DNA of 45,160 bases, from the NCBI GenBank assembly GCA_900128395.1, contig LT649289.1, positions 1 through 45,160 on the forward strand. Direction: 5' to 3'. A program made the translations under genes and the position numbers. Each line of letters starts with the position of its first letter. The first letter of the stretch is position 1. Source of the DNA: Stramenopiles sp. TOSAG23-2 (lineage: Eukaryota). This document shows positions 2,642 to 45,160 of this stretch, one piece after another. The notes below the pieces were generated by a model that was given only the letters and a program-made list of their open reading frames with translations, ran no database searches and was not told the origin of the DNA.

Positions 2642-3059
2642 TGTCATCAAGTAATCTTGATAATGACTTTTATAACACATGAAGACGATGCAGGGAATGT
2701 GTTTTATAATTTTTTATTAATATACATGTGCATATGCCATAATATCTGGGAATGAGATTGGATATTATATATAATAAAAAAAGATGTACACATAATAATA
2801 ATATTTTAAAAGAATATCTTCTCTGTATGTAATTAATATTTTATATTTTGATTTTGATACAGTGGTTAAATCTTGTTTTAGATGACGACAAATAGCAAAT
2901 ACTATCCCTCTTCTCCTCTGTCAAATAAATGACTCACTTCTAATATCATACGCTCTGCTAATACTCACCCATATATATATATAATAAATAGACAATAGGA
3001 AGAGAGAAGAGATATATATGAAAGAACATAAATTGAAATCTTAATACGCTCGTTATCAC

Positions 3060-4879
3060 ATGATGGAACATTATAAACAATACTTCGACATGGAGTCACC
3101 GGAAGATAGAATATCTGCATGTTTCATATTAGCTGTCTTTGTATTTGTTGGTTCATCAGTAATAGATGGTTCTATTAATATATTGCAGTTGCATCACAGG
3201 CTCTATAAAACACATCAATTAAATACAGTTGCAGCATTATTGAGCTTTCTATTTACACTCGTCGCAGGAATTGTGAAAAACACGCATCCAACTATACTGG
3301 CATACATTGCTGACGAGGAAGCAAAACCATATTTATTCATATGGAAAGATTCACTTTCAATAAAATCACATCAAACTATATTTTTACACATTGTGTTTTA
3401 TTTATTAGGACACGTTGTCGCTGTTTTGTATAAGTTGATCATTGTAGCATTTAAAGCATATAAATATAGGCAGTTAACAAAAGTTGGGTTAAATAAATGT
3501 ACAGGGCAACCAAAGCGTATCTTAATTATTCATGCATCTGTTGGTAGTGGGCACAAGCGTGCCGCGCAAGCAATAGAAGAAGCTATTAAAAAACGCATTA
3601 TTAATTCAGGTGGTGAAATAGCAAGTGACAATGATAATGATAATAATAATGACGAGAAGAATGGTAAAACTGTTGTGAAAGTATTAGATATTATTGATAC
3701 ACAAGAATGGTTTTTACGAACAGTATATAAAAAAGGTTTTATGACATTAGTAGGTGAAGATTGGGGACAAGCATTTATCGGATTGATGTTTGATAGATCA
3801 AATCAGCAAGCTCCTGGATTAGATGTTGGCGAACATGGTTTCTTTCAAACTGTTTTAGAAGAAGCATTTTCATTATCGTTTGTCGAGTATTTATTTAATT
3901 TCAAACCAGATATTATAATCAATACGCATTTTCTTGGATTAAAGATTATATCACATTTAAGACAGAAATTACCTGCATTCAATGTACCGCAAGTAACAGC
4001 AGTAACCGATTTTGACGTTCATGCATATTGGGCATGTCAACCATGTGAGCATTTTTTCGTTGCAAGGGATGAATGTAGACATGCCTTACAAGAAATGGGA
4101 ATTTCAAATGATTTAATACAAATTACCGGTATGCCAATTGTTCAAGCATTTTCAAATGTACGTTCAAAACAAAAGTGTTTAAAAGATTTACAATTAGATG
4201 GTAAATTACCAATTATATTATTAATGGCTGGTGGCGATGATATCTTTGAAACGTATCATGCATTATTAGAAATGACAACTAGTGTACAGATTGCACTTGT
4301 ATGTGGAAGACATGAAGATTTGAGAGATCAATTATTAGCAATCAATGTACCGATTAGGCATAAAGTAAAAATTGAAGGTTTTACTCGTGTGATGCGTAAG
4401 TAAATTCTAATATATTCCCCTATATATATATATTAAACCTCTAAAAAGGATACCTTCTCTCTCTCTAACACCATTTTTCTTGTTCATATACGCTATGCTT
4501 CACAGATGAATATTTATCATGCGCTGATTTAATTATCACAAAACCAGGTGGATTAACAACTGCAGAATCATTGGCAATGGGTACTGCTATTGTTGTGTAT
4601 CATAGTTTACCCGGGCAAGAATTACGGAATGCAGATATGATATTAGAGGAAGGTGCAGGAATCAAAATAAATGATTCAAGGATGTTAGGATATAAAATTG
4701 AAAAAATTTTAAAAGACAAAAAACGTCTTGCTTCATTAAAAAAAAATGCAAAACGAATTGGTTCTACCGATAGTGCTGATAAAATTGCAAAATATATATT
4801 CAATGCTGATTATTATGATACATACATGTCATCAAATGCTCGTCGTAGTAATTATAAAAAAAGGGGGAAAAATGAATGA
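3060..4879 (+). CDS. GT28 glycosyltransferase, MGDG synthase / UgtP-like, with N-terminal membrane segments; exons 3060-4395 and 4506-4879 (569 aa)
   Basis: ILIIHASVGSGHKRAAQA, PDIIINTHF, AVTDFDVHAYW, ITGMPI. Splicing GTAAGT(4396)..CTAAC..CACAG(4505) gives GFTRVM-H-EYLSCADLIITKPGGLTTAESLAMG...PGQELRNA, the canonical GT28 C-terminal motif. Confidence 0.9.
4396..4505 (+). other. Spliceosomal intron (110 nt), member of a related-intron family
   Basis: GTAAGT donor, CTAAC at 4465-4469, CAG acceptor; removal joins two ORFs across a conserved motif. Confidence 0.9.
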
Positions 4880-5037
4880 GTGTGAAAACCAAAAGAGGGA
4901 GGAGAGAGAGAGAGGAAATAGTGAATGTGTGATGTGTGAATGTGTGAATGTGGTGGTTTTTTTTGTGTGCATGTCTTTACATAGAGTTGTTTTAATTATG
5001 AGAGGGATTTTTTGTATCATACAAAAATTTAAAATAT

Positions 5038-6405
5038 TTAAAATATTCTTTTTAACTCAGACGCATGTGCTGCTAGCCTATTGCACCCCTCCAAAAATGC
5101 AGCCTGGGAGTTATTTGGGTCAACTGCCGAGCGATCCAATATAGACAGGGAGTGAGCACACGTGCCTTTCTTTTTCATATACCGGACGACCTCTAAAATA
5201 CTTTTCTGAGTCTCAACCTGCAAAGACTGCCGAATGAATTTTTCTAGCTCCAAGAGCAACCTTTCGCATTGCTCGCTACTTAGGGCGTGCTTGGTACAAA
5301 ACTCGGCAGTCACGGTTTCAAGATTACTTGACGGCCCCAGAGGTATCACTACCTTGTCTGTCTTATCTTCCAGTCCAACTTTAAAGTAGAAGTCTTGGTT
5401 CAATAGCACCGGAACGACAACTTCCAGTAGACTGCGTTCCGACAAACTCATCTTTCCGCACTCGTGGGACTTGGAGAGCATTCTCTCCTGCAGCTGGCGG
5501 CACGCATTTTCATCCAACCCCTTGTAAGCCAGGCAGGCCTGTACTAATATTTGCTTATTGGCTTCGGGTTGCGGGCATTTCAAGCGAAGCAATTTTGTGT
5601 CGCACATACGTGGATCTACAAAAATACCCCGTGCTAATACGAGGCTGGCGTGCACGTATATGTCGTCCATCTCCACGCAAAATGTTCGAACGTACCCATG
5701 GGCTATCAGCAATAGTCTAATTTGTTCTCGCTTTTCGCCCTGCTGGTTGTGCTCTACGGCTACCGCACCAAATGTGTACTTGGAAAAATTAAAATTCTGC
5801 AATATCATGAATTCGGTCCCTTCCGTATCGAGCGATAAGAAATGGACAAAAGGAGGCGCATGATGTTCATCCATCACTTCTTCCAACGTTCGCGTTACAC
5901 GACGCGTCACTTCTCCCCGGGTCGAGTACAGCAAATGCTCGCGGATGCCGCTGTACAGATTTCTTGAGCTTGGATTTGCTCCCAATGTCATTTCACCGTT
6001 ATTATCATTTTTTAGGCGATTTGCAGCGACTTGGATATCCACGCTGCTGTTCTGGACATCTTCAAAAAAATCGACAACGATGCCAGATATATTCGAAAGC
6101 GGCTCATTCCTCATGGCACACCTCCGTCCGCTTGTTACCAAACGCGCATATTGACGAGAGGGCTCGACGCAGAGACCGGTCCACCCGAACGCTTTTTCGA
6201 GTGTCAAGGTGTTGCTCATATGGATTCCGTCCGCGGCTCCAATCTCAACAAAATACCCTGTTCCGAGGGGAACAGAGTCGCCATACACTTGTTGCATGAC
6301 ATATTTCTCTTGATCAACCTGGGAATGCCACACAATTTCACTGTCCCACACGCTTATGGACTGGGCCGACGCTACGAAAAGCAGGAAGAGGAGACCAACA
6401 GTCAT
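5038..6405 (-). CDS. FkbM-family (Methyltransf_21) SAM-dependent methyltransferase with signal peptide and Cys-containing C-terminal domain
   Basis: YFVEIGAADGIHMSNTLTLEKAFGWTGLCVEP, FLSLDTEGTEFMIL, AVAVEHN; hydrophobic N-terminus MTVGLLFLLFVASA. Confidence 0.88.
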   Translation of the reverse strand: MTVGLLFLLFVASAQSISVWDSEIVWHSQVDQEKYVMQQVYGDSVPLGTGYFVEIGAADGIHMSNTLTLEKAFGWTGLCVEPSRQYARLVTSGRRCAMRNEPLSNISGIVVDFFEDVQNSSVDIQVAANRLKNDNNGEMTLGANPSSRNLYSGIREHLLYSTRGEVTRRVTRTLEEVMDEHHAPPFVHFLSLDTEGTEFMILQNFNFSKYTFGAVAVEHNQQGEKREQIRLLLIAHGYVRTFCVEMDDIYVHASLVLARGIFVDPRMCDTKLLRLKCPQPEANKQILVQACLAYKGLDENACRQLQERMLSKSHECGKMSLSERSLLEVVVPVLLNQDFYFKVGLEDKTDKVVIPLGPSSNLETVTAEFCTKHALSSEQCERLLLELEKFIRQSLQVETQKSILEVVRYMKKKGTCAHSLSILDRSAVDPNNSQAAFLEGCNRLAAHASELKRIF

Positions 6406-7484
6406 CCCGCCACCACCACAGCCTTCTAAAGCAATCGAGGGGATAACAAGTTTGAAAAGAACACGACAGTTATTTCTCTTAACACATTCTTATTGACATC
6501 GTTGTAATTCGAACGAGAAAGACATGTGTTCATTTAGTCTGTATGTATTTCATCTAACCATTCCTCGTCGAGATATAATAATGTTTCTTCGCTTTCTTTT
6601 TCCTTTTTTTATTTTGCAAGTATAAATAATAATAATAGAAGAATAATATTATTATTATATTATATTTATAGATATTATGAATGATTAGATCTATGTTGTT
6701 GCCTATTATTTATTATTGAAATTATAATAGGTATGGCTATTGATGAAATTATTATTTTATTTTTCAAATATAAAAAAAATAATAGTCTGCGGCGCGTGTA
6801 CTTGGTAAATTAGATTACCGATTACCTATATATTTATAGCTTGTGTATATGATATATAGTCAATAGTCAAGGATATATGAAAAATATTATTTAGATTTAT
6901 AGGGTCGAGATCCTGATTATGATATCCTCGCCTCTTGCCTCTTTATCTTGCCTCTTGCAAGTCGCAAGTGTAGCAAGTTGCTTCTTGATATTATAATACT
7001 GGTATTACAATATAGCTAATGCTACGAGTGCCAAAATGCTGGACAACGAAAAAGAGCTTTACGATCACAAAATCATTTCATGTTGTTACCACGTATATCG
7101 AAATATTAATGATCTCTAAGAAGGAGAAATTGTATATATATTAATATATATATATATATATATATGGTAGTACTATCCCTTGTGTATTAATTAATATATA
7201 CGTATAAAATATATATGGAATGTAGTATATATATATGTATATATTGTACTTCTCTTTTATCTACATACAATGCATATAAATCTATAAATTTTGTTACTAA
7301 TGTGTCTTAGTTATTCATATTTTTGTTCAAAATAATGAATGCACAAATCGATCACAATTATTATTATTATTTTTTAGTCTTTTTGTTTTTAGTTTTGGCA
7401 TTTTTCTATTTTAAGGTAAGGGCTGTAGCAGGGAAGAACGAAGGGAATAATCGAGTAGCATTTTTCCTATAGAATTTTAGAATC

Positions 7485-7757
7485 AAATTTATGACTATCG
7501 AAAAAATTTAGTAGGGGAAGATATTGAAAATGCCGTTGGACCAATGGATTTGTTAAAATATTGCAAAACAGATCAAGAAAGAAAAGAAATGGAGGCTGTA
7601 ATTAACATAGGAAAAGAGTTAAATGGTATGACGAGTGATGGGATACCATATATTTATCGTTGTTGGGCCGATACAGAGTTTCAAAATGCCCATGAAGTTC
7701 TTGGTAAAAAACCACAAGAATATTTTCATAAAATTATAAAAAAACCAATACTCGACG
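7485..7757 (+). pseudogene. 273-bp near-identical copy of an internal part of the CRAL-TRIO gene (12689-12961)
   Basis: Matches 12689-12961 at offset 5204 with one mismatch seen (G7535 vs A12739); lacks the gene start and 3' part. Confidence 0.9.
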
Positions 7758-7916
7758 CGACTACGATATATATTATTAGAATTTTTTATATGATATAATA
7801 TATATTTTTTATAATAAAAAAATATTAATAATAATTTTAATAAAATTAATGTGAGCATCAGAAATGTTATACACACGACGGCAGCGCATTTAGCTATTGG
7901 TGTCACCACACACACA

Positions 7917-8055
7917 CATGTTATGTGAAATCAGACATATTCTCTCTTCTTCCACGCACACATGTTATGTGAAATCAGACACATATTCTCTCTTCTTCCA
8001 CGCACCATGCGTTATGTGAAATCAGAGACATATTCTCTCTTCTTCCACGCACCAT
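7917..8055. repeat. Minisatellite, 3 imperfect copies of about 44-47 bp
   Basis: Unit CATGTTATGTGAAATCAGACATATTCTCTCTTCTTCCACGCAC starting at 7917, 7961 and ~8006, with small indels. Confidence 0.9.
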
Positions 8056-8238
8056 ATGTTTCAAAAAAATATACATTTTTTTACTTGTTATTTTGTTTTA
8101 TTAATATTTGTGTAATATTGTGGTGCATAAATGATGTATCACAATCGTTTCAATCATCTCCTATTTTTTTCCTTATTTCTTTGTTTTAGACTTTACGTTT
8201 TCTATTACTCTCGGTTTCCAAGTTTCCAATACCATTTT

Positions 8239-11200
8239 TCAATCTTCTTTGTGTTCATCATCATCAACATTAACATTAACTTTCTCTTCTTCTTCTTCCG
8301 TATTCACCACACCATTCTCCTGCCCGTTCATTGTTGTTCCAACTTCTTCTATTACTGTTGCCACACCCAAACGTTCCATCATCATTTCATTCATCATTGA
8401 TTCATGTTCATAATTACGCTTACCACCTTTTGGTCGATACGACATAACTTCATGACCATTTAACATCTTTCGTATTGTTTTAGCAGTCTTATTATTTGCT
8501 TTTATTTCAGTATCACTAGCTTCAAATACCCAATCATCTACTTTTGACATGATGAACAATAATTCTTTTTTTTCATCCAAAACCATTTGTAAACTACGAA
8601 GACAACTATCATCTTCTAATACACCTCCTGTCAAAATTATTACAACATATTCAGCTTCTGAAACAACAGATATAATTGTTTGTTGGCGAGACAGTAATGA
8701 TTTTTCTATATCTTGACCAATATGTTTTCCAGATTTTATATTGTCAACTGAATTTTCAGCATAAATAACCATAAATGAATGTGTTTTAAAACTAAGATAA
8801 ATTGGTCTAGGTACTTGAATCTCAGCACGACGTAACAATTCATACACCATAGCTTCATATTCAAATCCACGACGTCGATGTGGTATCATTTGATCATTAT
8901 CATGCATGTCAATTATCACTTTACGTATATGATTTGCAGTGTCAGGACTGCCTTGGAGTCTTGAAAATTTAGTAAATCCCATATCTTTGGTCTCAAGGTC
9001 CGTATATGTCTTTTCCAACGTTGAAACAATTTTCCCTTTTGCATCAAATCCCATTGAACTTTTCCATCCACGCTCTTCCGCATTTTTATGATTTGACTTG
9101 CGCGAACACATATTTGCTTGCCATCGATTTAAATTCCATTGCCAAAACATTGGATTTTCTTCTACAATAACAAAAATTGGTTTGTTATAGAATAATGCAG
9201 TAGCAAATTCTAATAAACAATACCATCTTGACATATAACTATTTGTTAACATGACAACAAATATATCAGAATCAATCACACCTTGTATCATACTATTCGC
9301 ATCAATTTTTTTCTGTGACATATCACGCCATACATGTACCCCGGATTGTTTCAATGTATTAAATAATGTACCAACCTCCCCAGACGATTCAGCTTGCATA
9401 TGGGATATAAACATATGGTATTTCATAGGTTGTTGACCCGGTTCGTTTTTATTGCTTGGATTCAAAAAACGGTGATCCAATATATTTTGAAGAGATGGTC
9501 TTTCATTTGGTTTACCTTTCAGACACCAACGAATTAAATTTTTTGCATCGTTTATTGTTTGTATGTTTGCCGTATCAGTTTTACTAAATATCACATCAAA
9601 ATATGTATCGGGAATAGTATGCCATGCACACAATATGGCTTTATCTGGTTTATTTGCTAAATTATCATCACTAATATCTTGTGGAAATAAATTTTGACCA
9701 GTACATAATTCGTATAATAATACACCTAATGACCAAACATCAAATGATGATTTTATTATGTCCAACTTGCCACCAATAGTAGTGAATATACAACGAGCTA
9801 ATTCAGGTGGACAATATCCGGTACTATATTTTAAGCTGTTATCCCGTTGGCTATCTTTTTCACATGCAGCATCCATATCACATAATAGCAATTGTTCTTC
9901 TTTGATGCCATCGCGTCTAACATATAAAAAATTACGTGGTTTTAAATCACAATGTACATATTTTAAATCATGATGCAATTCTTTTACTTTTGTCACAGCT
10001 TGATGAAATATATTGACAATTTTATATGGATTGTAACCAGCAATACGTTGTGTAGAAAGCTCGTGAAATAACGATACAATACCACGTTCCATGACTAATA
10101 CATATTGGTACTCAGAGTGAAAGGTTGGTTCTACGATACAAACTCGTTGTTTTCCATGATGATTTTCTAATGGAAGTTTTGTTTCAGCGTTTGGTAAATG
10201 CCATCCAAGTACTTTGACAACACATTTATCAATTGTACTATCAGAATTAATATCACTAATAAATCGTGCAGTAATCTCACGTTCAAATTCATCATAATTC
10301 TTCATTAATTTTAATGCTACTTGGTTATTGTTATCTTCAATATCTGTAGCAAAAAATACAATCGATGTGGAGGATTGATGTACAGGTTTTTCTTCGCTGG
10401 TAATTTTATAACGTTGAAATTTCGTACCGAGCGATTTGGCCCATTTAACGACTAATGGCCATTCGCAATAACGTATTATAGCATCTCGATCTCGATCAGC
10501 AGCATCATGGTATATTGGTTTAATTTTGTTATAAATGTGTTTCGTTAATATAAGATGTTTGTCTTCGTTGGATTTATTAAATTGCATTTCGCATATGTAA
10601 TGTAAATTTGTTTTACCATTTATTTCGAATTCTTCATTGTTTTGATTGATACGTTTAATCCTTGATGCTAATGTTTTATATATGTTCATATTTAAAACAT
10701 CGATGGCGTATCGTAATAAGGGCTTTTCCGGATTATTGGACATGTGATCATTGGACATATATAAAATTATACTACGATCATCTTCATTCATGCATTTCCG
10801 AAATAATTCCATATTTTCAGATTTGATTGCATTGTGTAAATTAGATAATTCTTCTACACATTTTCCACCTTTTGAACGTATAAGATCAATGATCTTTTGT
10901 ATAATTAGACTATGATTACCATAACATGCCCTGTCCAGGGGAGTGTATCCCACCGAATCCTTCTTATTAATGCTATTAAGAGACATATTAGTTAATAACA
11001 AATTAATCACCGCAGTACTCTTTTTGTTCCATTGTGCTGCCCAATGTAATGCAGTTAATCCATGTCTGCTATTTCCAATATTAAGATCAGCTTCACCTTG
11101 TTCAATCAAATATTTAACTATTTGGAAATGTTCTTTCTCTGCAGCTGCCATTAAAGGTGTACATTCGAAACTATCACTACGTTTACCTTCTTGATTCACG

Positions 11201-11556
11201 TATTCTTTCAATGTCATATTATTATTATTACCATTACTACCATTCACATCATTATTACGCCCTGTAATCAATAATTTCACATCCTCAAAACGTCCTTTTT
11301 CACATGCACATACTAATGGCGTACCTTTTGGAAATTCTGTTTTATACTTTTCTTTTAATTTCGTTACCACATTACTATCAATTACTGTTTTTGTTATTGA
11401 ATTATTACTCGCATTATTATTGTTGTTGTTATTATTATTGCTATCATTACTCCCAGTGCTGTTGTTATCACCATTGTTTACAGCATCAACTCCTTGTCGA
11501 TTTGGAGCACCGATTCCATTAGATTCATCTTTTGCATTTGACGCCGTGCACCCCAT
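8239..11556 (-). CDS. Ankyrin repeat + Ser/Thr-type protein kinase + TIR domain protein with predicted N-terminal acylation (~1105 aa)
   Basis: Likely start MGCTAS at 11556; ankyrin repeats (TPLVCAC, TPLMAAA, TALHWAA, TPLDRAC); kinase VALK, HCDLKPRN, CDMD, STGYCPPE, DVWSLG; TIR YHMFISH...VWRD...SDIFVVMLTNSYMSRWYCLLE. Confidence 0.9.
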   Translation of the reverse strand: MGCTASNAKDESNGIGAPNRQGVDAVNNGDNNSTGSNDSNNNNNNNNNASNNSITKTVIDSNVVTKLKEKYKTEFPKGTPLVCACEKGRFEDVKLLITGRNNDVNGSNGNNNNMTLKEYVNQEGKRSDSFECTPLMAAAEKEHFQIVKYLIEQGEADLNIGNSRHGLTALHWAAQWNKKSTAVINLLLTNMSLNSINKKDSVGYTPLDRACYGNHSLIIQKIIDLIRSKGGKCVEELSNLHNAIKSENMELFRKCMNEDDRSIILYMSNDHMSNNPEKPLLRYAIDVLNMNIYKTLASRIKRINQNNEEFEINGKTNLHYICEMQFNKSNEDKHLILTKHIYNKIKPIYHDAADRDRDAIIRYCEWPLVVKWAKSLGTKFQRYKITSEEKPVHQSSTSIVFFATDIEDNNNQVALKLMKNYDEFEREITARFISDINSDSTIDKCVVKVLGWHLPNAETKLPLENHHGKQRVCIVEPTFHSEYQYVLVMERGIVSLFHELSTQRIAGYNPYKIVNIFHQAVTKVKELHHDLKYVHCDLKPRNFLYVRRDGIKEEQLLLCDMDAACEKDSQRDNSLKYSTGYCPPELARCIFTTIGGKLDIIKSSFDVWSLGVLLYELCTGQNLFPQDISDDNLANKPDKAILCAWHTIPDTYFDVIFSKTDTANIQTINDAKNLIRWCLKGKPNERPSLQNILDHRFLNPSNKNEPGQQPMKYHMFISHMQAESSGEVGTLFNTLKQSGVHVWRDMSQKKIDANSMIQGVIDSDIFVVMLTNSYMSRWYCLLEFATALFYNKPIFVIVEENPMFWQWNLNRWQANMCSRKSNHKNAEERGWKSSMGFDAKGKIVSTLEKTYTDLETKDMGFTKFSRLQGSPDTANHIRKVIIDMHDNDQMIPHRRRGFEYEAMVYELLRRAEIQVPRPIYLSFKTHSFMVIYAENSVDNIKSGKHIGQDIEKSLLSRQQTIISVVSEAEYVVIILTGGVLEDDSCLRSLQMVLDEKKELLFIMSKVDDWVFEASDTEIKANNKTAKTIRKMLNGHEVMSYRPKGGKRNYEHESMMNEMMMERLGVATVIEEVGTTMNGQENGVVNTEEEEEKVNVNVDDDEHKED

Positions 11557-12426
11557 AATATTTGGTATAAAATATATGTTAAAAATTATTATTAAACTGA
11601 TTTGTAAATTTATCAAATAATATTATAATATAATCTTTAAAAAAAAAATCCAAATGTAACGTAATATAATTTCAATAGTGTTATACGATCGTATTTATTA
11701 TTATATATATCTTCCTGATAATTCGTAAAAATATATGTCCAAACAAATATGTATACCACTATAGTATTATATTATACCGGATGATAAATTACGAATAAAG
11801 ATGATATAAAATAAAATAAAACCAACCAAATGTTCGTAAACACAACCAAATGTACGTAATTTTTAATATTATTATATTAAAATTAACAAAAAAATGTTAT
11901 ATATTTTAATATCTTCGTAATGTTCTGTATATGGATAAACGTTTCAACTATAGATATATTATCTTGTTCTACAGTTATATCTCTTAAACAATAATATATA
12001 TTTATATATATTCAACACAGTGGTGATATTACAATTATCTACAACCTCCCCCCCTTGTGTAGATTGTATATCATTATTCATTCATTATATATGATGTGGA
12101 TGGGTAAAGAAGGAGGTGGAAAGTCGTCATTGAAATATTGAAATCCTCTCTTCCACACAAGTCCCTAGATCTACCTATCAAATACTGTATCTATAGTATA
12201 CTAAATCTGTACTTATCGGAAAAATAAGGATATAATAACATTTTCTACTTCGTTCTACTCTTGCCACAGAGTAACTTCGTTCTATCTACGTCTTACCTGT
12301 AAATAAAAGATATCTATTAATATATATATTTGTTGCATTTTATTAGAAAACATACAATAACAATTCTTCAACAAAATAAAATTATAAAAGAGAATACCCT
12401 TCGTCATTCGCTTATCACTACCGACA

Positions 12427-13979
12427 ATGGCATCCCTTGCATTTGATAATGACAAAATTACCGATGGTAATTCCGCTTTTATGGAATTACCAGACGAAGA
12501 AGAAAAAAAAATGCTAGTTCAACTACGTGATGCATTAAAACAAGATATGGAAAGATCGAAATCATGCAAAGAATTTCCAGAGATTGTGTCTGATTATAAA
12601 TTGATTAGATATATACGCGGATATGAAGGGGTCGACGGGGCTGTAGCCGCTTACCGTAAAATGCTACGGACACGTGAAACATATCCTGAAATTTATGACT
12701 ATCGAAAAAATTTAGTAGGGGAAGATATTGAAAATGCCATTGGACCAATGGATTTGTTAAAATATTGCAAAACAGATCAAGAAAGAAAAGAAATGGAGGC
12801 TGTAATTAACATAGGAAAAGAGTTAAATGGTATGACGAGTGATGGGATACCATATATTTATCGTTGTTGGGCCGATACAGAGTTTCAAAATGCCCATGAA
12901 GTTCTTGGTAAAAAACCACAAGAATATTTTCATAAAATTATAAAAAAACCAATACTCGACGGCATCTTGATGGAGTTAAGATTGGATGCTTTAAGTAAAA
13001 AAAATAACAAAATAGCAAGGATGATATGGATAGGAGATTCTACTGGATATAGCTTTTCCAAATTTCGATCAAATATCAAAGATGGTCCTTGGAAAATCTT
13101 TGTTGATCATTACTTTCCTAAAGATGAAAATAATAAAGGTCCATTTGAAACATATGCACCAGAATCAGTTGGAATTATCTTATTGGTTAATACTGTAAGT
13201 AATAAATTGCTTTTCTCGTATTGCTTTTCTCTCGTCAAGATATATGCGATGAATCTCGATCAAATTTTAAATTTCGTTTTCAAAGACATCAAAATTCTAA
13301 CATTAATTTTAATCTTTATATTTATAATAGCCGTGGTATTTGGTAAAAATTTACAATTGGATTATTTTAAATTTCGTTTTCAAAGACATCAAAATTCTAA
13401 CATTAATTTTAATCTTTATATTTATAATAGCCGTGGTATTTGGTAAAAATTTACAATTGGATTATTAAAACATTTTTTCCTGCTCGTGTTCAACAAAAAA
13501 TTGTCGTGTTAGGGAAAGATTATAAAAAGCGACTATTAGCATTCATGGACCCATCATCTGTTGATCGTATTATGAAACACCGTGGCGTTGATGATGAGGA
13601 TGATTTGCCATTAAGCAAACCTGATTTGAAAATGAAAAAAGGAAAGGTAAAAGAAGTACCAGTCTCTGGGAAACCCGGGGATACAATTGAATGGACATTC
13701 AATGTAACCAAAAATACTGTTGATTTTTCTTTAATCTTGTACGTTCCTGGTAAGGATGGTGAAGTGGAAGAACGAATCATCTTAGAACCACAACGATGTA
13801 ATATTGACGATGAAGAAATACAAGGTGATTATGAAATTGAAGATTTAAGTGAAGAAGCTGATAATGGTGGCACCAAAGATACTGAGTATTTGCTAGGCTT
13901 GCGGTTTTCAAATAAACATTCACTGTTAAGAACTACTAAAGTTGCATACGATATAAAAATCACAAAGGAGGAAGATTGA
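12427..13979 (+). CDS. Sec14-like CRAL-TRIO + GOLD domain lipid-binding protein; exons 12427-13194 and 13431-13979 (438 aa)
   Basis: DYKLIRYIRG (CRAL-TRIO N-terminal domain); YAPE...ILLVNT|PWYLVKIYNWIIKTFF...QKIVVLG after splicing GTAAGT(13195)..TAG(13430); GOLD-like IEWTFNV...VDFSL...LRFSNKHSLLRTTKVAY. Confidence 0.88.
13264..13466. repeat. Exact 100-bp tandem duplication spanning an intron 3' end and exon start
   Basis: 13264-13366 repeated at 13364-13466; duplicates the branch point and the acceptor (AG at 13330 and 13430). Confidence 0.92.
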
Positions 13980-13989
13980 AAATATTCCT

Positions 13990-14213
13990 GTTGTGTAACA
14001 GAAGTTTTGAATTAAGTGTCCCAATGAGCCAGTGAACTAAAATTTAAAAAGAAAAAAACTCTATACGAAAACTGTGTATATATTAATCTATTAATCTCAC
14101 AGTTGTGTAACAGAAGTTTTGAATTAAGTGTCCCAATGAGCCAGTGAACTAAAATTTAAAAAGAAAAAAACTCTATACGAAAACTGTGTATATATTAATC
14201 TATTAATCTCACA
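13990..14213. repeat. Exact 112-bp tandem duplication between convergent gene ends
   Basis: 13990-14101 equals 14102-14213. Confidence 0.92.
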
Positions 14214-14378
14214 ATTAAATGTGCGCCAATAACTTAAACATATACGTATATGATATATACACGAAGTTAAGATTATATTTTACTTTTTATTCGTATTAAA
14301 ACGCACAACACAAAAACAAAACACACTTTTTTACACCCGGCGTACTTATTCGTAAACGCACACCACATATATATTATT

Positions 14379-17357
14379 TTACCGCAACAACTTATCTTTT
14401 TCAGTAAATTTAAACAACGTATAATTTTGCATAGCCAAACCAACTTGGTGCAAGATGTTGTCTATTGTCTTACGTTTATTACACTCTTTTGTAAGTAAAA
14501 AATAATATTTTCCGTCTTTTTTAAATGTTATGTTCCCATCTTCCAATAGAACGGATGAAAGTGGTGCTTTAACATGCTTAAATATATTTGAAATATTAAA
14601 TGATTCACAATTTGGATTTATCAAGTACGAGTTTCCACATCTACTTTTTTCATATGGTATTTCCATTTTATTTAATAAATCAGACATGTATAAATATGTA
14701 TGATCTTCATTTTCTAATGATAAAAGTTCTTCTACTTCGTTTAATTGATTGGAAAGCATGTCATATTTATCATCATCAATATCTACTATCACGGTAGAAT
14801 GATTCCCATCTAATTTTTGCATCATGAAATCCAATTCATCACTAAAATCATCACCATCATTCTGTGCTATATTATCAATATTATCATTATCCAACTCAAC
14901 CTCTTCTTCCGCTTCAACTATATCCATTTTCTCTACATTCAACAAAGGAAAATTGTTTTTGTCAAAATATTCAATTTCATTTATGATAATTTTCTTACTG
15001 TTTTTCTTTATTGTACTTGTAGCAAATGAATCTAACAATAATCGTTGTTGTAACATGAAGATAAATTTATCATTTTTAAATTTATTTGGTGCATTATAAG
15101 TTGTATAATTTAAATCTCGTTGATAATGTTTTAGCCTTAATTTACTTTGATTGATATCTACATGGCTGCGGTACTTTTCTATTGAGTTTCCCATATTTAT
15201 CATTATTTCATCAATCTGCTCTTGTACAATCAATTTCAAATCATCATCATCTACTGTTTCAACTGCTTTCAATACATTTAGCATGGAAAAATGCAAATAA
15301 AATGATTTTCCAATATACTTAAATGTTGCTCCATGAAAAACATCATTATATATATTACATGCAATTTCCCATTCCCCCGCATTGCCACAAGCAGTAATTA
15401 TACTATTTACAATATAAAGAGGTAGTAAAGTTCTAGAAAGATTCGCTTCGTGAACAATGGTATAATAAATGTCTAATGCTTTTTCCCAGTCATTATATTT
15501 ACCACATATGTCAATCAATGCTACGCAACCATGTGGATCATGTAGACGATTATATGCGATTTGAACAAAATTCCCAAATTTATAAGAGGGCTGTGGTTTG
15601 TTCTTATATTCATCACTATTTACATATTCCTTCTGTAAGCCAAATGCCTTACTACTTTCAAACCTACCAGTTTTTGTAACAATACCCAATTTTACGAACT
15701 TTTCATATCCTTCATTAAATTTTCCTACCTTACCATACACATCAACAAGTCCAGCTACAATGTTCAGATCTATTCTATTTGTCCCTTGTAAACCTGTCAA
15801 TAAATTTGCTGCCATGATTTCCATTGCTTCATAGTGTTTATTATCTGCAAGTGCATGAATAACTTTTAACGATTCACGATGATTTTCATGGACATTTACA
15901 TCACTAGATATTTCATTCTGATGATAACTATCCTTCCATGAAATTAAATTCTTATTTGTTTTTAAAACTGTATGCAACATTGTGTTTGCAACGTCAAATT
16001 TATCATTGCGGATTAAATATGCAAAAACATTATGCAATGTAATGTTGTCCATTTTTATTTTGTATTTACAGTGTAATTTGGCCCAATTTAAAAAATGTTT
16101 CTCATTATTCACTAAAAATATATCATTCAGAACAAGCCACTCCGTCATTTGTATAAACAATTCTTCATCTGGTTTTACTTTTAAATATGTTTCCATATGT
16201 TCAAATAAATAAAATGCATGATCAATCAATCCAATTCGTACTAATACTTCTATCATTGCAGTAAATGATTTTATACCAATATCATATGGCAAATCATTGT
16301 TATAAAGTTTTTCAAGAAATACATTATATAAATTGGTCACATGCGTTGCATTAAATGTCTTAAATTTTTTAACTTCGTTAATAAGCTCTGCAAACATTTC
16401 ATCATTTGCTTGAATATTACTTTCATTATATGCAATATCCTCTTTGAAATCAATAAATAATTGATGAATGGATGAACGCGATTCTAGAATGTGATTTAAT
16501 GAAAGATTAAAACTATGAACACTTTGATCTTTTGGATTTTTCAACATTAATATACGATCATTGGCACCTTCCTCTTCTTCTTCTCTCAGCTTCTTTTGTT
16601 TTTTTGCCATTTGATTTTGTGAAAAACTACGAAATTTTTGGTCGGGTTCTTTGTCTTCTTCATCATCATCTATTTCTTCTTCGACCCGCATGTCTTCTTC
16701 TCTTATTTTTTTTTCTTTTTTTATCTTTTGATTTTGTAATTTTATTTGTTGTCTAAGAGTCGCATTATTACGAAAATTATATATGCTAAAATATTTCAAG
16801 TTTTTAAAATCACGAATACCTTTCGATAATATTTCATTTTTTTCTTCTTGTTCCCTTTGCATTTGCATCTCCTCTATCGATAAGGAGGAGCCAAAATCAG
16901 GACTGGTATTAATCATATTATCAAAATCATCCGAATCAATACTATCAAAAGCAAATTCTGTGTCAATCTGATCAAAGTTAGAACTTTCTTCTTCATCAAT
17001 ATTGGTATCATAATTATCAAATGGAAAAAACATGTCGTTTTCATTATCAAGGTTTAATTCTTCCTCTAAATCAAGTAATTCTCGTTCTAAACTTTGTATT
17101 TCTTTTTCGATCTTAATCAATTCTTTGTCTTTAACTTCTTCCTCCAATGCTGAAATTTTCTTTAAATGTTTGTCGTTATCCTCGCTATTTTCTTCTTTTA
17201 CATTATCATCATCATCTTCACCATCGCTAGTAGATGAACCCATCACTACATTTGTTGAAAATAAACGACGTGGGTGGCCCGTCACTACATTTGTTGAAAA
17301 TAAACGACGTGGGTGGTGGTAACGATATGATAGAAATTGTTTGACGATAGACTGCAT
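14379..17357 (-). CDS. Pentatricopeptide-repeat (PPR) protein, probably mitochondrial (~992 aa)
   Basis: Presequence-like MQSIVKQFLSYRYHHPRRLFS, then an acidic region; PPR-like motifs SFTAMIEVLVRIGLIDHAFYLFEHM...KPDE, CVALIDICGKYNDWEKALDIY, IVNSIITACGNAGEWEIACNIY. Confidence 0.8.
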   Translation of the reverse strand: MQSIVKQFLSYRYHHPRRLFSTNVVTGHPRRLFSTNVVMGSSTSDGEDDDDNVKEENSEDNDKHLKKISALEEEVKDKELIKIEKEIQSLERELLDLEEELNLDNENDMFFPFDNYDTNIDEEESSNFDQIDTEFAFDSIDSDDFDNMINTSPDFGSSLSIEEMQMQREQEEKNEILSKGIRDFKNLKYFSIYNFRNNATLRQQIKLQNQKIKKEKKIREEDMRVEEEIDDDEEDKEPDQKFRSFSQNQMAKKQKKLREEEEEGANDRILMLKNPKDQSVHSFNLSLNHILESRSSIHQLFIDFKEDIAYNESNIQANDEMFAELINEVKKFKTFNATHVTNLYNVFLEKLYNNDLPYDIGIKSFTAMIEVLVRIGLIDHAFYLFEHMETYLKVKPDEELFIQMTEWLVLNDIFLVNNEKHFLNWAKLHCKYKIKMDNITLHNVFAYLIRNDKFDVANTMLHTVLKTNKNLISWKDSYHQNEISSDVNVHENHRESLKVIHALADNKHYEAMEIMAANLLTGLQGTNRIDLNIVAGLVDVYGKVGKFNEGYEKFVKLGIVTKTGRFESSKAFGLQKEYVNSDEYKNKPQPSYKFGNFVQIAYNRLHDPHGCVALIDICGKYNDWEKALDIYYTIVHEANLSRTLLPLYIVNSIITACGNAGEWEIACNIYNDVFHGATFKYIGKSFYLHFSMLNVLKAVETVDDDDLKLIVQEQIDEIMINMGNSIEKYRSHVDINQSKLRLKHYQRDLNYTTYNAPNKFKNDKFIFMLQQRLLLDSFATSTIKKNSKKIIINEIEYFDKNNFPLLNVEKMDIVEAEEEVELDNDNIDNIAQNDGDDFSDELDFMMQKLDGNHSTVIVDIDDDKYDMLSNQLNEVEELLSLENEDHTYLYMSDLLNKMEIPYEKSRCGNSYLINPNCESFNISNIFKHVKAPLSSVLLEDGNITFKKDGKYYFLLTKECNKRKTIDNILHQVGLAMQNYTLFKFTEKDKLLR

Positions 17358-17559
17358 CTTTTGCTTTAATATTTTGACATGTATTTGTATCATCGCTAGT
17401 AGATGAACCCATCACTACATTTGTTGAAAATAAACGACGTGGGTGGCCCGTCACTACATTTGTTGAAAATAAACGACGTGGGTGGTGGTAACGATATGAT
17501 AAAAATCGTTTGACGATAGACTTCATCTTTTGCTTTAATATTTTGACATGTATTTGTAT
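17222..17559. repeat. 169-bp tandem duplication of the PPR gene 5' end, each copy with an internal 36-bp repeat
   Basis: 17222-17390 vs 17391-17559, about 3 mismatches (MQSIVKQF vs MKSIVKRF); HPRRLFSTNVV is encoded twice in each copy. Confidence 0.92.
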
Positions 17560-17782
17560 TTATAATTGTATCTGTTCCATCTGTTTTCTCTTTCTTCTAT
17601 CGATTATGTATATTTTCATTTTCTTTTTCTTCGATTATTATTGATTCTTCAGACAGAAATGGTTGGTGATGATATTCCATGTTGTGTGCTTGTTATGATG
17701 AAAAAGTATATAGTATTACTGTATATATTATAATATAGGCATAGCATTATAAGACAGGGACACAGCACAGAAACCCTGATAT

Positions 17783-18031
17783 TTACACTAAAGGACGTTT
17801 CCATTTTCCAGTGAGGTCCGTAATATCCCTTTTTACCTCCGTAATATCATCACGTACTAGCACCCAATCAAGAGGAATTCGATCTGATTCGTGACCTTCC
17901 CATTCGCCCTTTTCCCATATCACGGTAATTGTATCTCCCTCAATGGATTTAATCATAGCATTGTGCCATGTGAAAGTGTCCGAATCTGTAGCGTTCTGCC
18001 ACCGTACTTTACAGTTTTGCCCAATATGCAT
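17783..18031 (-). CDS. Small Tudor/SH3-like beta-barrel protein or gene fragment (82 aa)
   Basis: Pattern IGQNCKVRW...TWHNAMIKSIEGDTITVIW...DRIPLDWV resembles Tudor/Agenet domains (judged by eye). Confidence 0.45.
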   Translation of the reverse strand: MHIGQNCKVRWQNATDSDTFTWHNAMIKSIEGDTITVIWEKGEWEGHESDRIPLDWVLVRDDITEVKRDITDLTGKWKRPLV

Positions 18032-18223
18032 ATCTGGATTTTTTTTTTAAGCCGTAAATATCGTTATTTAAATTTCTTTTCAAAAAAATACACCCCATTT
18101 TTTTTTTCGTGTCAGATACGTTGTATGAACCAAATAAACATATATACGGACGTCATATATGGCGTAGGCGAGGTAATAAACGTTCCGGTGGTTTAAATAA
18201 TTGTATTATTCGAAATATAAAAG

Positions 18224-18930
18224 CATGTTGACGGAAAGGTGTATGTGTTGCAAATTGTTGATCGAAATAGTCGTGTGGATAATAAAATATTGGAGGATAA
18301 AATGGAAGAAGTATTGGGAAAACATTGTCAGTATCTCAAAAGGGTATATCCAGAATATAAAAAAAGTAATCATAAAGCTAAAAAAAGAATTAATGTGTCT
18401 GATGATGAAAATGAGAAAGCCGATGATGAGAAAGCTGTTGATGCGGAACCTGATCATTTACCTGAAACATTTGCAATAGTTAATACAGCACTTATGGATA
18501 TCAGCGTTAACGATGATTGGAGGCCACTCTGAACTCTGATTGGAGGCCACTCCATTCAGAGTTCAAGGGCAAAGCTAATGTGTTTTTAGTCAATGCTTAT
18601 AATACAGGATTCTTAATAAAACAGTATATGGCATTAAATAATATCTCAAGACACCATACAGGTATTCGCATTTGCAAAGATAAAGTTATAATGGGTATAT
18701 GCATCAAGGTACATGGAATGGGTTTCATTCTCCACGTTACCATAAAATAGAATTCCTCCCATGGCATCTGCCAAACAACTTTAAAAATGATTTGGAAAAG
18801 CAACGGAAAGATTTTTTTATATAAATTCAAACCATTAGATGAGATGAAAGGAAATGAAATATATAGTGTTGAATTTAAAGGTAAACGTTCCTTACAACCA
18901 AAGCTAAAAATAACAAATGGATATAGTTGA
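18224..18930 (+). pseudogene. Frameshifted coding-like relic of unknown family
   Basis: Successive protein-like frames (VYVLQIVDRN...DDWRPL / HSEFKGKANVFLVNAY / YNGYMHQGTWNGFHSPRY / FLYKFKPLDEMKG), broken by a 23-bp insertion and further shifts. Confidence 0.4.
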
Positions 18931-19355
18931 GAGTTGATACTAGCTAGAAACTTCAATCGTTATAGATTGAGTTTCTCATTTCGGAATAGATTACTTTAGT
19001 TGGTTCAATTGGCATTAGTGCTGTGTCTAATATTAGTTCGATAGTATGCATATAGCATTAGATATAGTTTTAGGATAAATGGCTAAATTCCTTAAAAAAC
19101 ATGTATGTAAAAATTTGAATAATATAAAAGTGTAAGAAATAACTAACTATGGTAGCACTATACACCATTACCATTTTTTAGAGATTATATCCCAACATAA
19201 TACACAAAAAAAATACAAACAACAACAAATAAAGTGAAATCAATTCTATTGTAAGAGAAGAAAAGGAATTATTGTAGCTGTGTATGTGTATATATTTATA
19301 CATGACTTTATACATGTATATATTTATTCCAATTCATTCATTTATATTAACAAAG

Positions 19356-20978
19356 ATGTCAGCAATTACCAGTTCAAATAATAATAATAATAATAATAAC
19401 GACAACACAAATAACGTCCCATTTGCGTGTGGAACAACAGCAGAAGGTGAAAAAAACGACAATGTTGACATGTTAAGCAATCTGATAAACAATGTATCAC
19501 TAGGTGCAAAATTACATAATTTAAATTTTCAAATGCATCAAGAATCACGAAATCGTTTAGTTGAACGTTTTAAAACAGATGCGACGGTACCCGCAGGTTC
19601 AGTTATTTTAATGCAAGGTGGATGCAGTGAGACACGACATGAAACGGACCACGAAAAATTGTTTCGCCAAGAAAGCAGTTTTAATTATTTATTTGGTGTC
19701 AAAGAACCAGATTGTTATGCCTCGATTGATGTTGACTCTGGAAAAACCACGTTGTACGTACCAAGATTACCAGAAGACTATGCTATATGGATGGGTGAAA
19801 TTAAACCACCATCTTTTTATTTAAATCATTATCAAGTAGATGAATGTTTATTTGTTGATGAATTAAAAGATGATTTATTGAAAAAAGCAAAGTTATTGTA
19901 TTTATCACGTGGTTACAATACAGACAGTGGGAACTATGCAACTCCTGCTACGTTTGATGGAATCGATGAATTTCAATCCAATACGGATAAATTATATTAC
20001 GACATTGTTGAATGTCGTGTTATAAAATCAGAGAAAGAATTGGAATTATTACGTTATATTAATGACATTGCAAGTGATGCACATTTAGAAGTGATGAGAC
20101 GTGCAAGGCCTGGTATGCAAGAATTTCAATTAGAAAGTTTATTTAAACATTATTGCTATTTCTCTGGTGGTTGTCGTATGGATGCATATACTGCCATTGT
20201 TGGTTGTGGATGCAATAGTGCTACATTACATTACGGCCATGCAGGTGCACCAAATGATTTTGTAATAAAAGATGCAGATATGTGTTTATTAGATATGGGT
20301 ACGGAATACCATTGCTACACGTCGGATATTACATGTTCCTTTCCTGCTGATGGTAAATTTAGTGCAGATCAAAAAGCTATATTCGAAGCCGTTCAAGCAG
20401 CTCAAGAACATGTTATGAGTGCAATGAAACCTGGCGTGAATATGATGGATATGCATATATTATCTTATCGCGTAATATGTGAACATTTAGAACGTATTGG
20501 CATATTACGAAATGGTAATATTGATTTATACATGGAAAAGAATTTAGCTGGATATTTCATGCCACATGGTTTAGGACATTTTTTAGGATTGGATACGCAT
20601 GATGTTGGGGGAATACCAAAGGATCTAGTAGATAAACGACCGAAAGAACTTGGATATAAGAGTTTGCGTTGTTTACGTGTATTGGAAAAAGGGATGGTAC
20701 TCACAGTCGAACCGGGTGTTTATTTTGTGGATATTTTAATGAATAAATTATTAAATAATGAAAATGATTTATTGCAATATATTAATCCAGATGTATTAAA
20801 ACGTTTTCGTGGTTTTGGTGGTGTAAGACTTGAAGATGATGTTATTATAACGGAGGATGGATGTGAAAATATGACAAATTGTCCAAGAACAGTGGAAGAT
20901 GTTGAAAAAGTTATGAATGGAACGATTACGGAACGTGGTCAATTGAAAAAATTATTTTATCGATTATCAAAATATTGA
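19356..20978 (+). CDS. PEPD: Xaa-Pro dipeptidase (prolidase, peptidase M24B)
   Basis: FRQESSFNYLFGV, CLLDMGTEYHCYTSDITCSFP, PHGLGHFLGLDTHDVGG, VLTVEPGVYF, GGVRLEDD, CPRTVEDVE; likely start MSAITS at 19356. Confidence 0.95.
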   Translation: MSAITSSNNNNNNNNDNTNNVPFACGTTAEGEKNDNVDMLSNLINNVSLGAKLHNLNFQMHQESRNRLVERFKTDATVPAGSVILMQGGCSETRHETDHEKLFRQESSFNYLFGVKEPDCYASIDVDSGKTTLYVPRLPEDYAIWMGEIKPPSFYLNHYQVDECLFVDELKDDLLKKAKLLYLSRGYNTDSGNYATPATFDGIDEFQSNTDKLYYDIVECRVIKSEKELELLRYINDIASDAHLEVMRRARPGMQEFQLESLFKHYCYFSGGCRMDAYTAIVGCGCNSATLHYGHAGAPNDFVIKDADMCLLDMGTEYHCYTSDITCSFPADGKFSADQKAIFEAVQAAQEHVMSAMKPGVNMMDMHILSYRVICEHLERIGILRNGNIDLYMEKNLAGYFMPHGLGHFLGLDTHDVGGIPKDLVDKRPKELGYKSLRCLRVLEKGMVLTVEPGVYFVDILMNKLLNNENDLLQYINPDVLKRFRGFGGVRLEDDVIITEDGCENMTNCPRTVEDVEKVMNGTITERGQLKKLFYRLSKY

Positions 20979-23491: not shown

Positions 23492-24637
23492 ATGAAACAA
23501 TCTACAATGAAATATTCTTTTAATATTTTTTTTTTAATATTATCGTTTTTTTTTATTTTAATTATTTTTACAAATGCAGGTGAAACAGCGAGTTTAAAGC
23601 TTTCCCCTGGATGGCCAAGTGACTTAAATAAGTTTGATGTTGGTAATTTCACTTCAACGGCTGTAGGATTTCCAAACGACTCGTTGAATGAAAAACTGGT
23701 ATTTATTGCACAGCGAAAGAAAAATGCATATAAAGATTGTATATTAGCTTTTGATCCAAATGAAGGAAAATTTATTAAATCATTTGGTAGTAGTGCTAAA
23801 ATCAGTTCCCCACACGGGACATATTTTGATAGTGCAAGAAACTCATTATGGGTTGCAGATATTGAGCGCCACACAGTTTTGCAAATGTTGGGTTCAAATG
23901 GTGATGTATTGAAAGAGTTTGGAACTAGCGGTGTAGCAGGGAAAGGCGTTCACCCAACATTGCAATTTGGCAGCGTAGCTGATGTAGCAGTGGATGACTT
24001 GGGAAATATCTACATTACAGATGGAGATGGTAAGTATATAAAAAAAGTTGATGTATTATCTATTTAAATGTACTGTATATAGATATCCCCACGACAATAA
24101 ATATCATCCTCCTCGCTAACACCATATTATCACTTCTTCATACGTGTGATACACAATCTATTCATAGGTGGTATTAATAATCGTTTTGTGAAACTGAATA
24201 AAACATATGGAGTTGAATGGGTAATGGATCATAATTTTGGCAGCCCACATTCAATTGCATGGGAACGTACTCGTAATTATATTTGGGTAGCTGACCGAAG
24301 TAACAATAGGACACAAACATTTGATGCAAAAACAGGTGAATGGATAATGGACTTTACATGTTTTCGGGATATTGATCCTAGTTCACCTGATCCAATTTCA
24401 CCATGGGGGATACGTATTGATGAAAAGAATCAAGAATTAATCATGGCTGCCAATACTATGAGCGGCACACATGGCCATTTATTACGTTTACCGTTAGATA
24501 AATGCGAAATTTTACAAGATATTAATATTTGTAGTTTATGCAAGCCTCATGAATTAAGTATTGATGAAGAAAATGGTAATGTTTTCTTAGCAAATATTGG
24601 AACTCCTAGCTCCCTAATGAAATTTGAGAGAGTTTGA
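23492..24637 (+). CDS. Secreted NHL-repeat protein, NHLRC3 / PAL-like; exons 23492-24029 and 24168-24637 (335 aa)
   Basis: Signal peptide; SPHG...LWVAD, FGTSG, QFGSVADVAVD...IYITDGD|GGINNRFVKL (matches the NHLRC3-type DGDGGxNNR motif), SPHSI...WVADRSNNR, KPHEL. Confidence 0.88.
24030..24167 (+). other. Spliceosomal intron (138 nt)
   Basis: GTAAGT donor, GCTAAC branch, CATAG acceptor; splicing restores DGDGG. Confidence 0.9.
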
Positions 24638-44088: not shown

Positions 44089-45160
44089 ATGTGTACGGAT
44101 ATTGTAAGTGATGGGTTAACGAAACGAACATTTGTGTTTTTTTAATATTACGATTTATTATTATTCATCATAAAGTTTTAGAAAACAACTATAGACATTC
44201 TTGATACGTGGGTATTAGGAATTGCAAATCGATTCACCAATCAACATGGGGGGGTAGAAGGTTTTACAAGTGTCGTCATTGAAGCAACGAAAGACCAAAC
44301 GGTACCTTTTACCTTGTTAACGATGGGTGGAATGTCAGTATCAACAAAAGGTAGTCAACAATATTTAAATGATGTATATGCATCACAAAATGATGGATAT
44401 ACATGGTATGAAATACCAAAAGCTATTAAAAAAAATGCATTTCAAGAAGAAATTCCATTGCCACTTCTATATTTGGTGGACGTGCCTATCATACATCATC
44501 AACTTATTTAAAGAAAATATTTGTTTTTGGTGGACGTGCTGGATCATCTACACAAATGTTTAATGATGTTTATCGATCAGAAGATGTTGGGAAAACATTT
44601 GAAAAAATGACAGAAGCTGCACCATGGGAAGGACGATATCGACATATGGGTTTAGCCTATCCGTTAAGTAAAAAAATGGATACTGGAATTTTAGCCATAT
44701 TTGGAGGGTAAGTTCTATTCCCCTAAACCTACAGTAGATGTCCTCACTCTAACATGTCACTCATTCATACGCTACGCTCCCAGATACCAAAGCGGATCAT
44801 CAAAATGGTTTGATGATTTTTGGATTAGTGCAGATGATGGTAAAAATTGGTGTATGAATGGCGACAAGATGCCATTTGGACAACGAAGTGCTGGTACAAT
44901 TATACAAATTCCACGTCATTTACCAGATTGGGCACCAAGTAAATTACCGGAACTTCCTGCGGGTGATATGAATACAGATTATCATCCATTTCCACCAATT
45001 GTTATTTGCGGTGGATTAAATCCAGTGAAAGGACGATTGAATGATTGTTGGAAACGACATCGCGCACCAGTTAAAATGTGTATACCACAACCAGAAAAAA
45101 AACCAGAGGATTTAGGTTGGATCGTATTGATAGTTGTATTGGTATTAATGTGCATTGCTG
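44089..45160 (+). CDS. Asp-box (BNR)/kelch-like beta-propeller membrane protein; partial (runs off window), with introns and one frameshift
   Basis: Repeats MGG...LNDVYASQNDGYTW, VFGG...FNDVYRSEDVGKTF...APWEGR, IFG|G...FDDFWISADDGKNW; intron 44708-44783; possible intron 44104-44181; frame change at A8 44428-44435; TM-like segment at the window end. Start is uncertain. Confidence 0.75.
44708..44783 (+). other. Spliceosomal intron (76 nt), member of a related-intron family
   Basis: GTAAGT..CTAAC..CCCAG; removal gives IFGGYQSG in an open frame. Confidence 0.88.

What the first reader, a model, noticed from the sequence alone, without database searches (positions are those of the whole stretch)
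4396..4505. Introner-like family: homologous introns in unrelated genes
Seen: this GT28 intron and the intron at 44708-44783, 40 kb away in an unrelated gene, share colinear blocks well beyond splice signals: GTAAGT / TCT / ATTCCCCT / AAACCT / CTCTAACA / TTCATA(TA)CGCTA(T/C)GCT(T)C(A/C)CAG. They differ mainly by (TA)n and (CT)n expansions. Established: introner elements create families of similar introns, notably in aquatic protists. Inference: an aged intron-generating element in an otherwise intron-poor genome. I see no TSD or TIR, so the mechanism is open.
Basis: partly seen in the sequence, partly recalled or inferred. Interest (0 to 1): 0.75.

Follow-up and report, generated by a model that had tools for sequence, protein, structure and literature searches.

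The report
Self-copying 80-base intron family
The two introns are worn copies of one short intron that has copied itself into many unrelated genes of an uncultured marine microbe, always in the reading direction and often several times in one gene, a new example of the known 'introner' route by which genomes gain introns.

Summary
Confirmed. The introns at 4396-4505 and 44708-44783 are homologous beyond their splice signals (0 of 3000 shuffles with those signals fixed). They are two worn members of an ~80-nt family with 146 distinct sites found in this genome and 18 more in marine metagenomes. Each copy carries donor, branch site and acceptor. There is no TIR, no TSD and no fold. Paralogues and relatives' orthologues are continuous at these sites with no codon gained or lost, so these are lineage-specific gains. 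All 164 placed copies interrupt coding exons in sense orientation. Copies pile up in single genes: 31 of 139 have a neighbour within 3 kb against about 3 expected. It is an introner (about 95%) of the 'direct insertion' type. Spread by reverse splicing at the transcribed gene is my best mechanism (about 55%); a TSD-less DNA transposon filtered by selection is the rival (about 30%). 'Aged' fits these two copies, but others reach 98.7% identity. This scan reported the same family before on other pieces of this genome.

The parts
4396..4505 (+). Family copy 1: 110-nt phase-1 intron, lengthened by TA- and CT-rich insertions; CTAAC at 4465-4469
   Evidence: profile score 30.7 bits, E 1e-8; also present in a DNA contig of run X4
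3060..4395 (+). Exon 1 of the host GT28 / MGDG-synthase-like glycosyltransferase
   Evidence: PF06925 E 3e-18; homologues 40-82% identical
4506..4879 (+). Exon 2 of the GT28 gene
   Evidence: PF04101 over its cut-off; gapless junction with 10 of 10 homologues
44708..44783 (+). Family copy 2: 76-nt phase-2 intron with an in-frame stop; CTAAC at 44749-44753
   Evidence: 14 of 14 near-identical database proteins end at this stop
44433..44707 (+). Upstream exon part of the host Kelch-like beta-propeller gene
   Evidence: weak Kelch hits below cut-off; 98% and 79% identical relatives
44784..45160 (+). Downstream exon of the Kelch-like gene (runs off the window)
   Evidence: continuous with orthologue P0173 across the junction
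24030..24167 (+). Probable very old third family copy: 138-nt phase-1 intron in an NHL-repeat gene
   Evidence: p=0.003 against consensus with splice signals fixed, 1 of 10 introns tested; RNA contigs of two studies stop matching at 24028, as expected for this joint

Best explanation
A non-coding ~80-nt introner of the direct-insertion type. The mobile unit is the whole intron (donor, branch site about 32 nt from the end, acceptor), so a new copy leaves the mRNA unchanged. SHOWN: homology of copies in unrelated genes; precise gain; sense-exon placement; clustering in single genes; decay by short-repeat expansion towards ordinary-looking introns. INFERRED: the excised intron, still held by the spliceosome, is spliced back into a transcript or into the displaced coding strand of a gene being transcribed (R-loop), then copied to DNA by a reverse transcriptase or repair polymerase supplied in trans. 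Genes that already host a copy are re-hit because donor and target are then at the same place. Membership as an introner about 0.95; the confidence below is for the splicing-coupled mechanism.
For: All 164 placed copies lie in coding exons in sense orientation, although the pattern searches were blind to genes and 149 of 445 kb sampled is non-coding. Element ends equal splice sites; no TSD; no TIR. Empty sites are exact: ubiquitin codon 25|26 in three other genes, tandem SDR paralogue 34 of 36 nt identical. 21 same-strand pairs within 3 kb in this genome (42 sightings against 3.3 expected, upper bound 9.6); 23 of 26 pairs have no stop between them; no opposite-strand pair in this genome. 5 of 26 pairs share derived changes beyond the 5% tail. 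No 3' bias (mean position 0.50, n=111), which fits insertion into DNA better than a cDNA route (argument of PMC4540971). Reverse-transcriptase domains are present (8 matches).
Against: No intermediate was observed; the mechanism is untested in any organism as far as the papers read say. Many DNA-type introners are also more than 95% genic (PMC9860276 Table S5), so gene bias is not diagnostic. The target is not the classic AG|G proto-splice site (AG before 5 of 147 sites). The RNA has no fold, whereas the published models invoke one. 21 of 26 neighbour pairs are not especially alike and the pairs are not independent, so most clustering may reflect permissive genes. DBR1 is present. The position test is biased to the middle by locus size.
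Confidence: 0.55

Rival explanations
1. A non-autonomous DNA transposon that leaves no TSD (helitron-, crypton- or Acanthoeca-introner-like), prefers GC-rich DNA and hops locally; selection removes every insertion that is not spliced.
For: GC at sites 40.3% against 34.8% (p=2e-4). A weak reverse-complement symmetry centred between +3 and +4 (r=0.74; position-permutation p=0.004). Most surveyed introner families show a DNA-transposon sign (PMC9860276). Local hopping is known for DNA transposons (recalled).
Against: No TIR, TSD, terminal hairpin or fixed target dinucleotide. No intergenic or antisense copy in 164, and selection should not clear intergenic ones. The symmetry fails the sign-flip test (p=0.20). 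No long copy: 5'-end hits that were fetched resolved to ordinary or internally expanded introns or to contig ends. Local hopping would also give opposite-strand neighbours.
Confidence: 0.3
2. The excised intron or its cDNA is captured at DNA breaks, or by template switching during reverse transcription of mRNA, with no dedicated mobility; only sense, end-to-end copies survive.
For: Reverse transcriptases are present; subfamilies suggest that several copies acted as donors (405 pairs sharing 4 or more derived changes against 206 expected, maximum 280 in 30 shuffles; alignment slippage in the A-run may inflate this).
Against: Break repair usually leaves microhomology, indels or truncations (recalled); junctions here are exact. 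It does not explain why one sequence dominates. No 3' bias.
Confidence: 0.11
3. Not mobile: an extended lineage-wide splice signal, a conserved intronic RNA, or gene conversion between old introns.
For: The branch motif is the best-conserved part (98-100%); 3 of 4-6 introns called in a blind sample resemble the family.
Against: Similarity runs over all 80 nt, up to 98.7% between unrelated genes; other introns lack it; sites are empty in paralogues and relatives; no Rfam match on the copies of 6 loci scanned.
Confidence: 0.04

Closest known systems
Introners without TSD or TIR ('direct insertion', e.g. Alternaria alternata) in Gozashti et al. 2022, PMC9860276
   Same: Multi-copy similar introns in unrelated genes, both splice sites carried, no TSD or TIR, GC-rich target, aquatic host; length within their 30-654 nt range.
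   Different: No genome labelled as an uncultured marine stramenopile is in their list of 175 (Table S5 read in full); Blastocystis is the only Bigyra name I recognised there. Their MAG labels are genus names, so a relabelled relative cannot be excluded.
Fungal introner-like elements (Collemare et al. 2013, PMC3609843; 2015, PMC4457414)
   Same: Hundreds of copies, splice-competent, no TSD or TIR (per PMC9860276), decay into regular introns, some genes with two gained copies.
   Different: ILEs are long and have stable predicted structure; this family is short and unstructured (median z +0.29).
Micromonas introner elements (Verhelst et al. 2013, PMC3879977; Simmons et al. 2015, PMC4540971)
   Same: Marine protist, sense strand of genes, unique positions, short families of 74-75 nt (E2-IE), neighbours in one gene; source of the R-loop reverse-splicing model.
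   Different: About half of D-IEs are phase 0; here phases 0/1/2 are 44/40/63. The main M. pusilla family has TSD and TIR (Table S6). A stem-loop is predicted there. I did not compare sequences directly.

Membership tests
Introner | Many similar introns in unrelated genes | tested here: met
   164 distinct sites, nearest-neighbour identity median 86%, maximum 98.7%
Introner | Positions are lineage-specific gains | tested here: met
   Orthologues continuous on 58-, 224- and 403-kb contigs; empty paralogues
Introner | Copies are spliced out | tested here: inconclusive
Introner | Presence/absence polymorphism or ongoing activity | tested here: inconclusive
   All orthologous metagenome sites compared carry the copy, but they were found through it; 14 of 14 at 44708; one empty tandem paralogue
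MITE-type (TIR DNA transposon) introner | Terminal inverted repeats | tested here: not met
   Ends of the consensus are not complementary
MITE-type (TIR DNA transposon) introner | Target-site duplication | tested here: not met
   147 sites: k=2 9 vs 11.2, k=3 8 vs 3.4 (p=0.026, 1 of 7 lengths tested), k=4 1 vs 0.8, k=5-8 none; empty sites exact
MITE-type (TIR DNA transposon) introner | Insertion in nucleosome linkers | not tested
   No chromatin data or predictor used
Fungal introner-like element | No TSD or TIR, genic, decays into regular introns | tested here: met
Fungal introner-like element | Stable predicted RNA structure | tested here: not met
   Median MFE -2.9 kcal/mol, 1 of 130 with z below -2
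Helitron- or crypton-derived introner | Fixed target dinucleotide, 3' hairpin, or recombinase-bearing partner | tested here: not met
   All 16 dinucleotides occur at the junction; no hairpin; a partner was not searched by protein family
SINE / non-LTR-derived introner | TSD, poly-A tail, 5' truncation | tested here: not met
   none of the 8 RT-bearing contigs is in the hit lists

The most novel reading that the evidence does not exclude
An unstructured, G-poor 80-nt intron is enough to be mobile: the spliceosome reinserts it into the gene being transcribed, with a preference for its own gene, with no transposase, and successive waves of this single family made most introns of this intron-poor genome. 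The same-gene, same-strand pile-up would then be a genomic signature of spliceosomal retrohoming.
Probability: 0.3. Interest if true: 0.8.

Novelty: new member of a known kind. Interest (0 to 1): 0.5.

Why it matters
How introners without TSD or TIR move is an open question. This family is small, structure-free and sits in an intron-poor genome, so its sites can be read with little background. The strict sense-exon placement and the roughly tenfold same-gene clustering give testable predictions that separate splicing-coupled spread from DNA transposition. The graded series from 98% copies to barely recognisable introns shows new introns becoming ordinary ones. The phenomenon itself is known.

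Tried and rejected
MAFFT of the two introns with flanks failed. Alpha-tubulin search for taxonomy was mostly uninformative; best named identity was Hondaea, 83%. Looking for empty sites in this genome for L089 and L100: the host genes were not found. Insertions over 35 nt in 28 locus pairs: none was an absent family copy. RNA joint for 4396: not shown. First intron caller too noisy; replaced. Palindromic target at the cut: at chance. G at -1 and +5 did not replicate in 33 held-out sites (p=0.38, 0.40); G at +1 did (p=0.004). G+5 is not linked to GT at +1+2. Telomere-repeat origin of the CCTAAA doublet: only short TTAGGG-type runs, 14 against 8 in the control; rejected. Rfam: nothing on the copies. 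Long-copy candidates L129 and L165 are internal expansions or contig ends. Flanks of the RT loci were not read. Literature: 'introner'+'MAST' 0 papers; 'introner'+'stramenopile' 9 papers, listing only.

Full report
OBSERVATION. Their interiors align far above shuffled controls (0 of 2000), also when donor, CTAAC and acceptor are held fixed (53.3 against 28.6 +/- 5.7; 0 of 3000). The host genes are unrelated: a GT28/MGDG-synthase-like enzyme and a Kelch-like propeller. Against the family consensus the 4396 copy is 65% and the 44708 copy 83% identical counting gaps; they are not each other's nearest relative.

THE FAMILY. The genome (G000, 32.8 Mb, 9146 contigs) gave 40 matches among 40 scored candidates for the 76-nt intron, 39 of them other sites at 78-85%. 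Three motif searches gave 79, 61 and 68 hits with 0 in reversed controls; a looser one gave 70 against 8. A metagenome scan gave 41 loci, all 29-38% GC; many are the same sites as in G000 at 93-99% identity. After merging sites with similar flanks there are 164 distinct sites, 146 from G000; not every hit was fetched. Eight were left out of the statistics (six with mis-set ends, two under 18 bits); on inspection all eight are introns, mostly internally expanded. Nine more profile hits could not be placed, seven at record ends. On 130 copies: length 70-110 nt, median 83; donors GTAAGT 101, GTACGT 12, GCAAGT 3; acceptor CAG 114; CTRAC in 127, median 32 nt from the end; nearest-neighbour identity median 86%, up to 98.7% in unrelated genes; no fold and no TIR. 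The sense strand is 9% G. In a blind sample of 40 x 10 kb the profile found 3 copies at E<0.001, all worn, and 0 in reversed DNA. That scales to about 250 copies (Poisson range about 50-720, my arithmetic; the sample came from larger contigs). A simple intron caller found 6 candidates there: 3 family, 1 clear non-family, 2 doubtful. So the genome is intron-poor and the family may supply half or more of its introns, on very small numbers.

GAIN, NOT ANCESTRY. The spliced GT28 frame aligns without a gap to 10 of 10 homologues. Relatives at 78-87% identity run through the site on contigs of 31, 62, 224 and 403 kb, and a 56% relative is a 1578-nt uninterrupted gene call. I infer that these calls are continuous genomic ORFs; I could not see their DNA. 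For 44708, 14 of 14 near-identical proteins end at the in-frame stop in the intron, while 3 of 6 members of the 79% cluster run through it, one on a 58-kb contig; the other 3 do not reach the site. At DNA level, ubiquitin repeats on C4707 carry a copy between codons 25 and 26 and three other ubiquitin genes with the same peptide do not; two tandem SDR paralogues on L105 differ by one exact copy (34 of 36 flanking nt identical); two duplicated domains on L145 are each empty where the other is filled.

SPLICING. Four runs were laid on 4270-24269. RNA contigs of two studies stop matching at 24028 with 373 and 56 nt left, which is where a joint for intron 24030-24167 would be cut; the joint itself was not among the 15 of 54 shown. 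Nothing was shown for 4396, and 44708 was outside the stretch. Splicing of the two named introns therefore rests on frame and protein evidence.

TARGET SITE. No TSD on 147 sites (only k=3 is slightly up, 8 against 3.4, p=0.026 before correction); AG precedes 5 of 147; phases 0/1/2 = 44/40/63. Sites are GC-rich (40.3 against 34.8%, p=2e-4, n=118). G is raised at -1, +1 and +5 in 152 sites, but only +1 held in 33 held-out sites. A hint of palindromic symmetry 3 nt downstream passes one null and fails another (p=0.004, 0.20).

PLACEMENT. All 164 placed copies interrupt coding sequence in sense orientation: 147 cleanly, 9 near ORF ends or other introns, 8 as above; a third of the sampled DNA is non-coding. 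Among 156 copies there are 26 same-strand pairs within 3 kb with different flanks; 21 are within G000 (14 loci, 31 of 139 copies), against 3.3 expected sightings (upper 9.6); 23 of 26 have no stop between them; the only opposite-strand pair is on a metagenome contig. Five pairs share derived changes beyond the 5% tail and the set leans that way (p about 0.012, pairs not independent); 21 do not. There is no 3' bias (n=111 of 150).

MECHANISM. Shown: whole-intron unit, exact gain, sense-exon placement, same-gene clustering, decay. Inferred: reverse splicing at the transcribed gene followed by copying into DNA (0.55), in line with the R-loop model of Simmons et al. (PMC4540971), which predicts nearby insertions and no 3' bias. 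A TSD-less DNA transposon with GC preference remains possible (0.30), since many DNA-type introners are also nearly all genic. Capture at breaks or template switching (0.11) and a non-mobile signal (0.04) are weaker. RT domains and DBR1 are in the genome.

HOST. Held by seawater and marine metagenomes of 12 studies. The best named relatives of two window proteins are stramenopiles (Hondaea tubulin 83%; Triparma GT28 40%), so an uncultured marine stramenopile is likely; no tree was built.

WHAT I READ. PMC9860276: abstract, part 2 of 7, passages, Table S5 in full and the first rows of S6; its SI appendix could not be read. PMC12130899: passages; 12 of 14 supplements searched, with 0 hits for Stramenopiles, Bigyra and a family 15-mer. 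PMC4457414: part 1 of 4. PMC3609843, PMC3879977, PMC4540971 and bioRxiv 10.64898/2026.04.17.719054: passages. Paper searches. None of these showed this family; the unseen supplements could hold it.

VERDICT. Real, and a new member of a known kind. Eight earlier notes of this scan describe the same family on other pieces of this genome; they are unchecked and not independent support. What I add is the empty-site proof for these two introns and the measured same-gene clustering. Interest 0.5.

Noticed in passing
window 44455-44470: The Kelch-like gene lacks about 160 residues that a 98%-identical database protein (P0172) has, and changes frame there: a deletion allele or an assembly artefact.
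   Followed up: partly
window 3160-9590 and G000:C615 (L072): A 6.4-kb stretch including the 4396 intron is present a second time at 99.8% identity on another contig: haplotype or recent duplication.
   Followed up: partly
window 13195-13435: A GTAAGT intron in the CRAL-TRIO-like gene holds a ~100-nt tandem duplication that run X4 lacks (skip 13245-13365); a second partial copy of the gene lies near 7481-7798.
   Followed up: no
window 2930-2970: A short stretch just upstream of the GT28 gene resembles the 3' block of the family by eye; possibly a decayed 5' UTR copy. The profile did not score it.
   Followed up: partly
window 36965-37123: 159-nt intron with TACTAAC joining a HACD/PTPLA-like exon to a long downstream frame; only borderline family similarity (p=0.055).
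   Followed up: partly
window 5038-6489: A minus-strand methyltransferase-like ORF with visibly higher GC than its neighbours, transcribed in both RNA runs.
   Followed up: no
L229:2031-2152: A family copy carries a ~36-nt insert with 10-bp inverted ends and a possible 3-nt duplication, like a tiny MITE inside the intron.
   Followed up: no
L005 (- strand 1484-1575), L071:1098-1224: Copies whose own donor has decayed appear to use an upstream GT, turning 17-40 nt of former exon into intron.
   Followed up: no
L067 (G000:C4707): Each repeat of one polyubiquitin gene carries the same copy at the same codon, so the intron spread with the repeats; its ubiquitin reads VKQKIQ.
   Followed up: partly
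L103/L117 against L039: A 268-nt stretch of an ABC-transporter-like coding region is present in two metagenome contigs and absent from G000.
   Followed up: no
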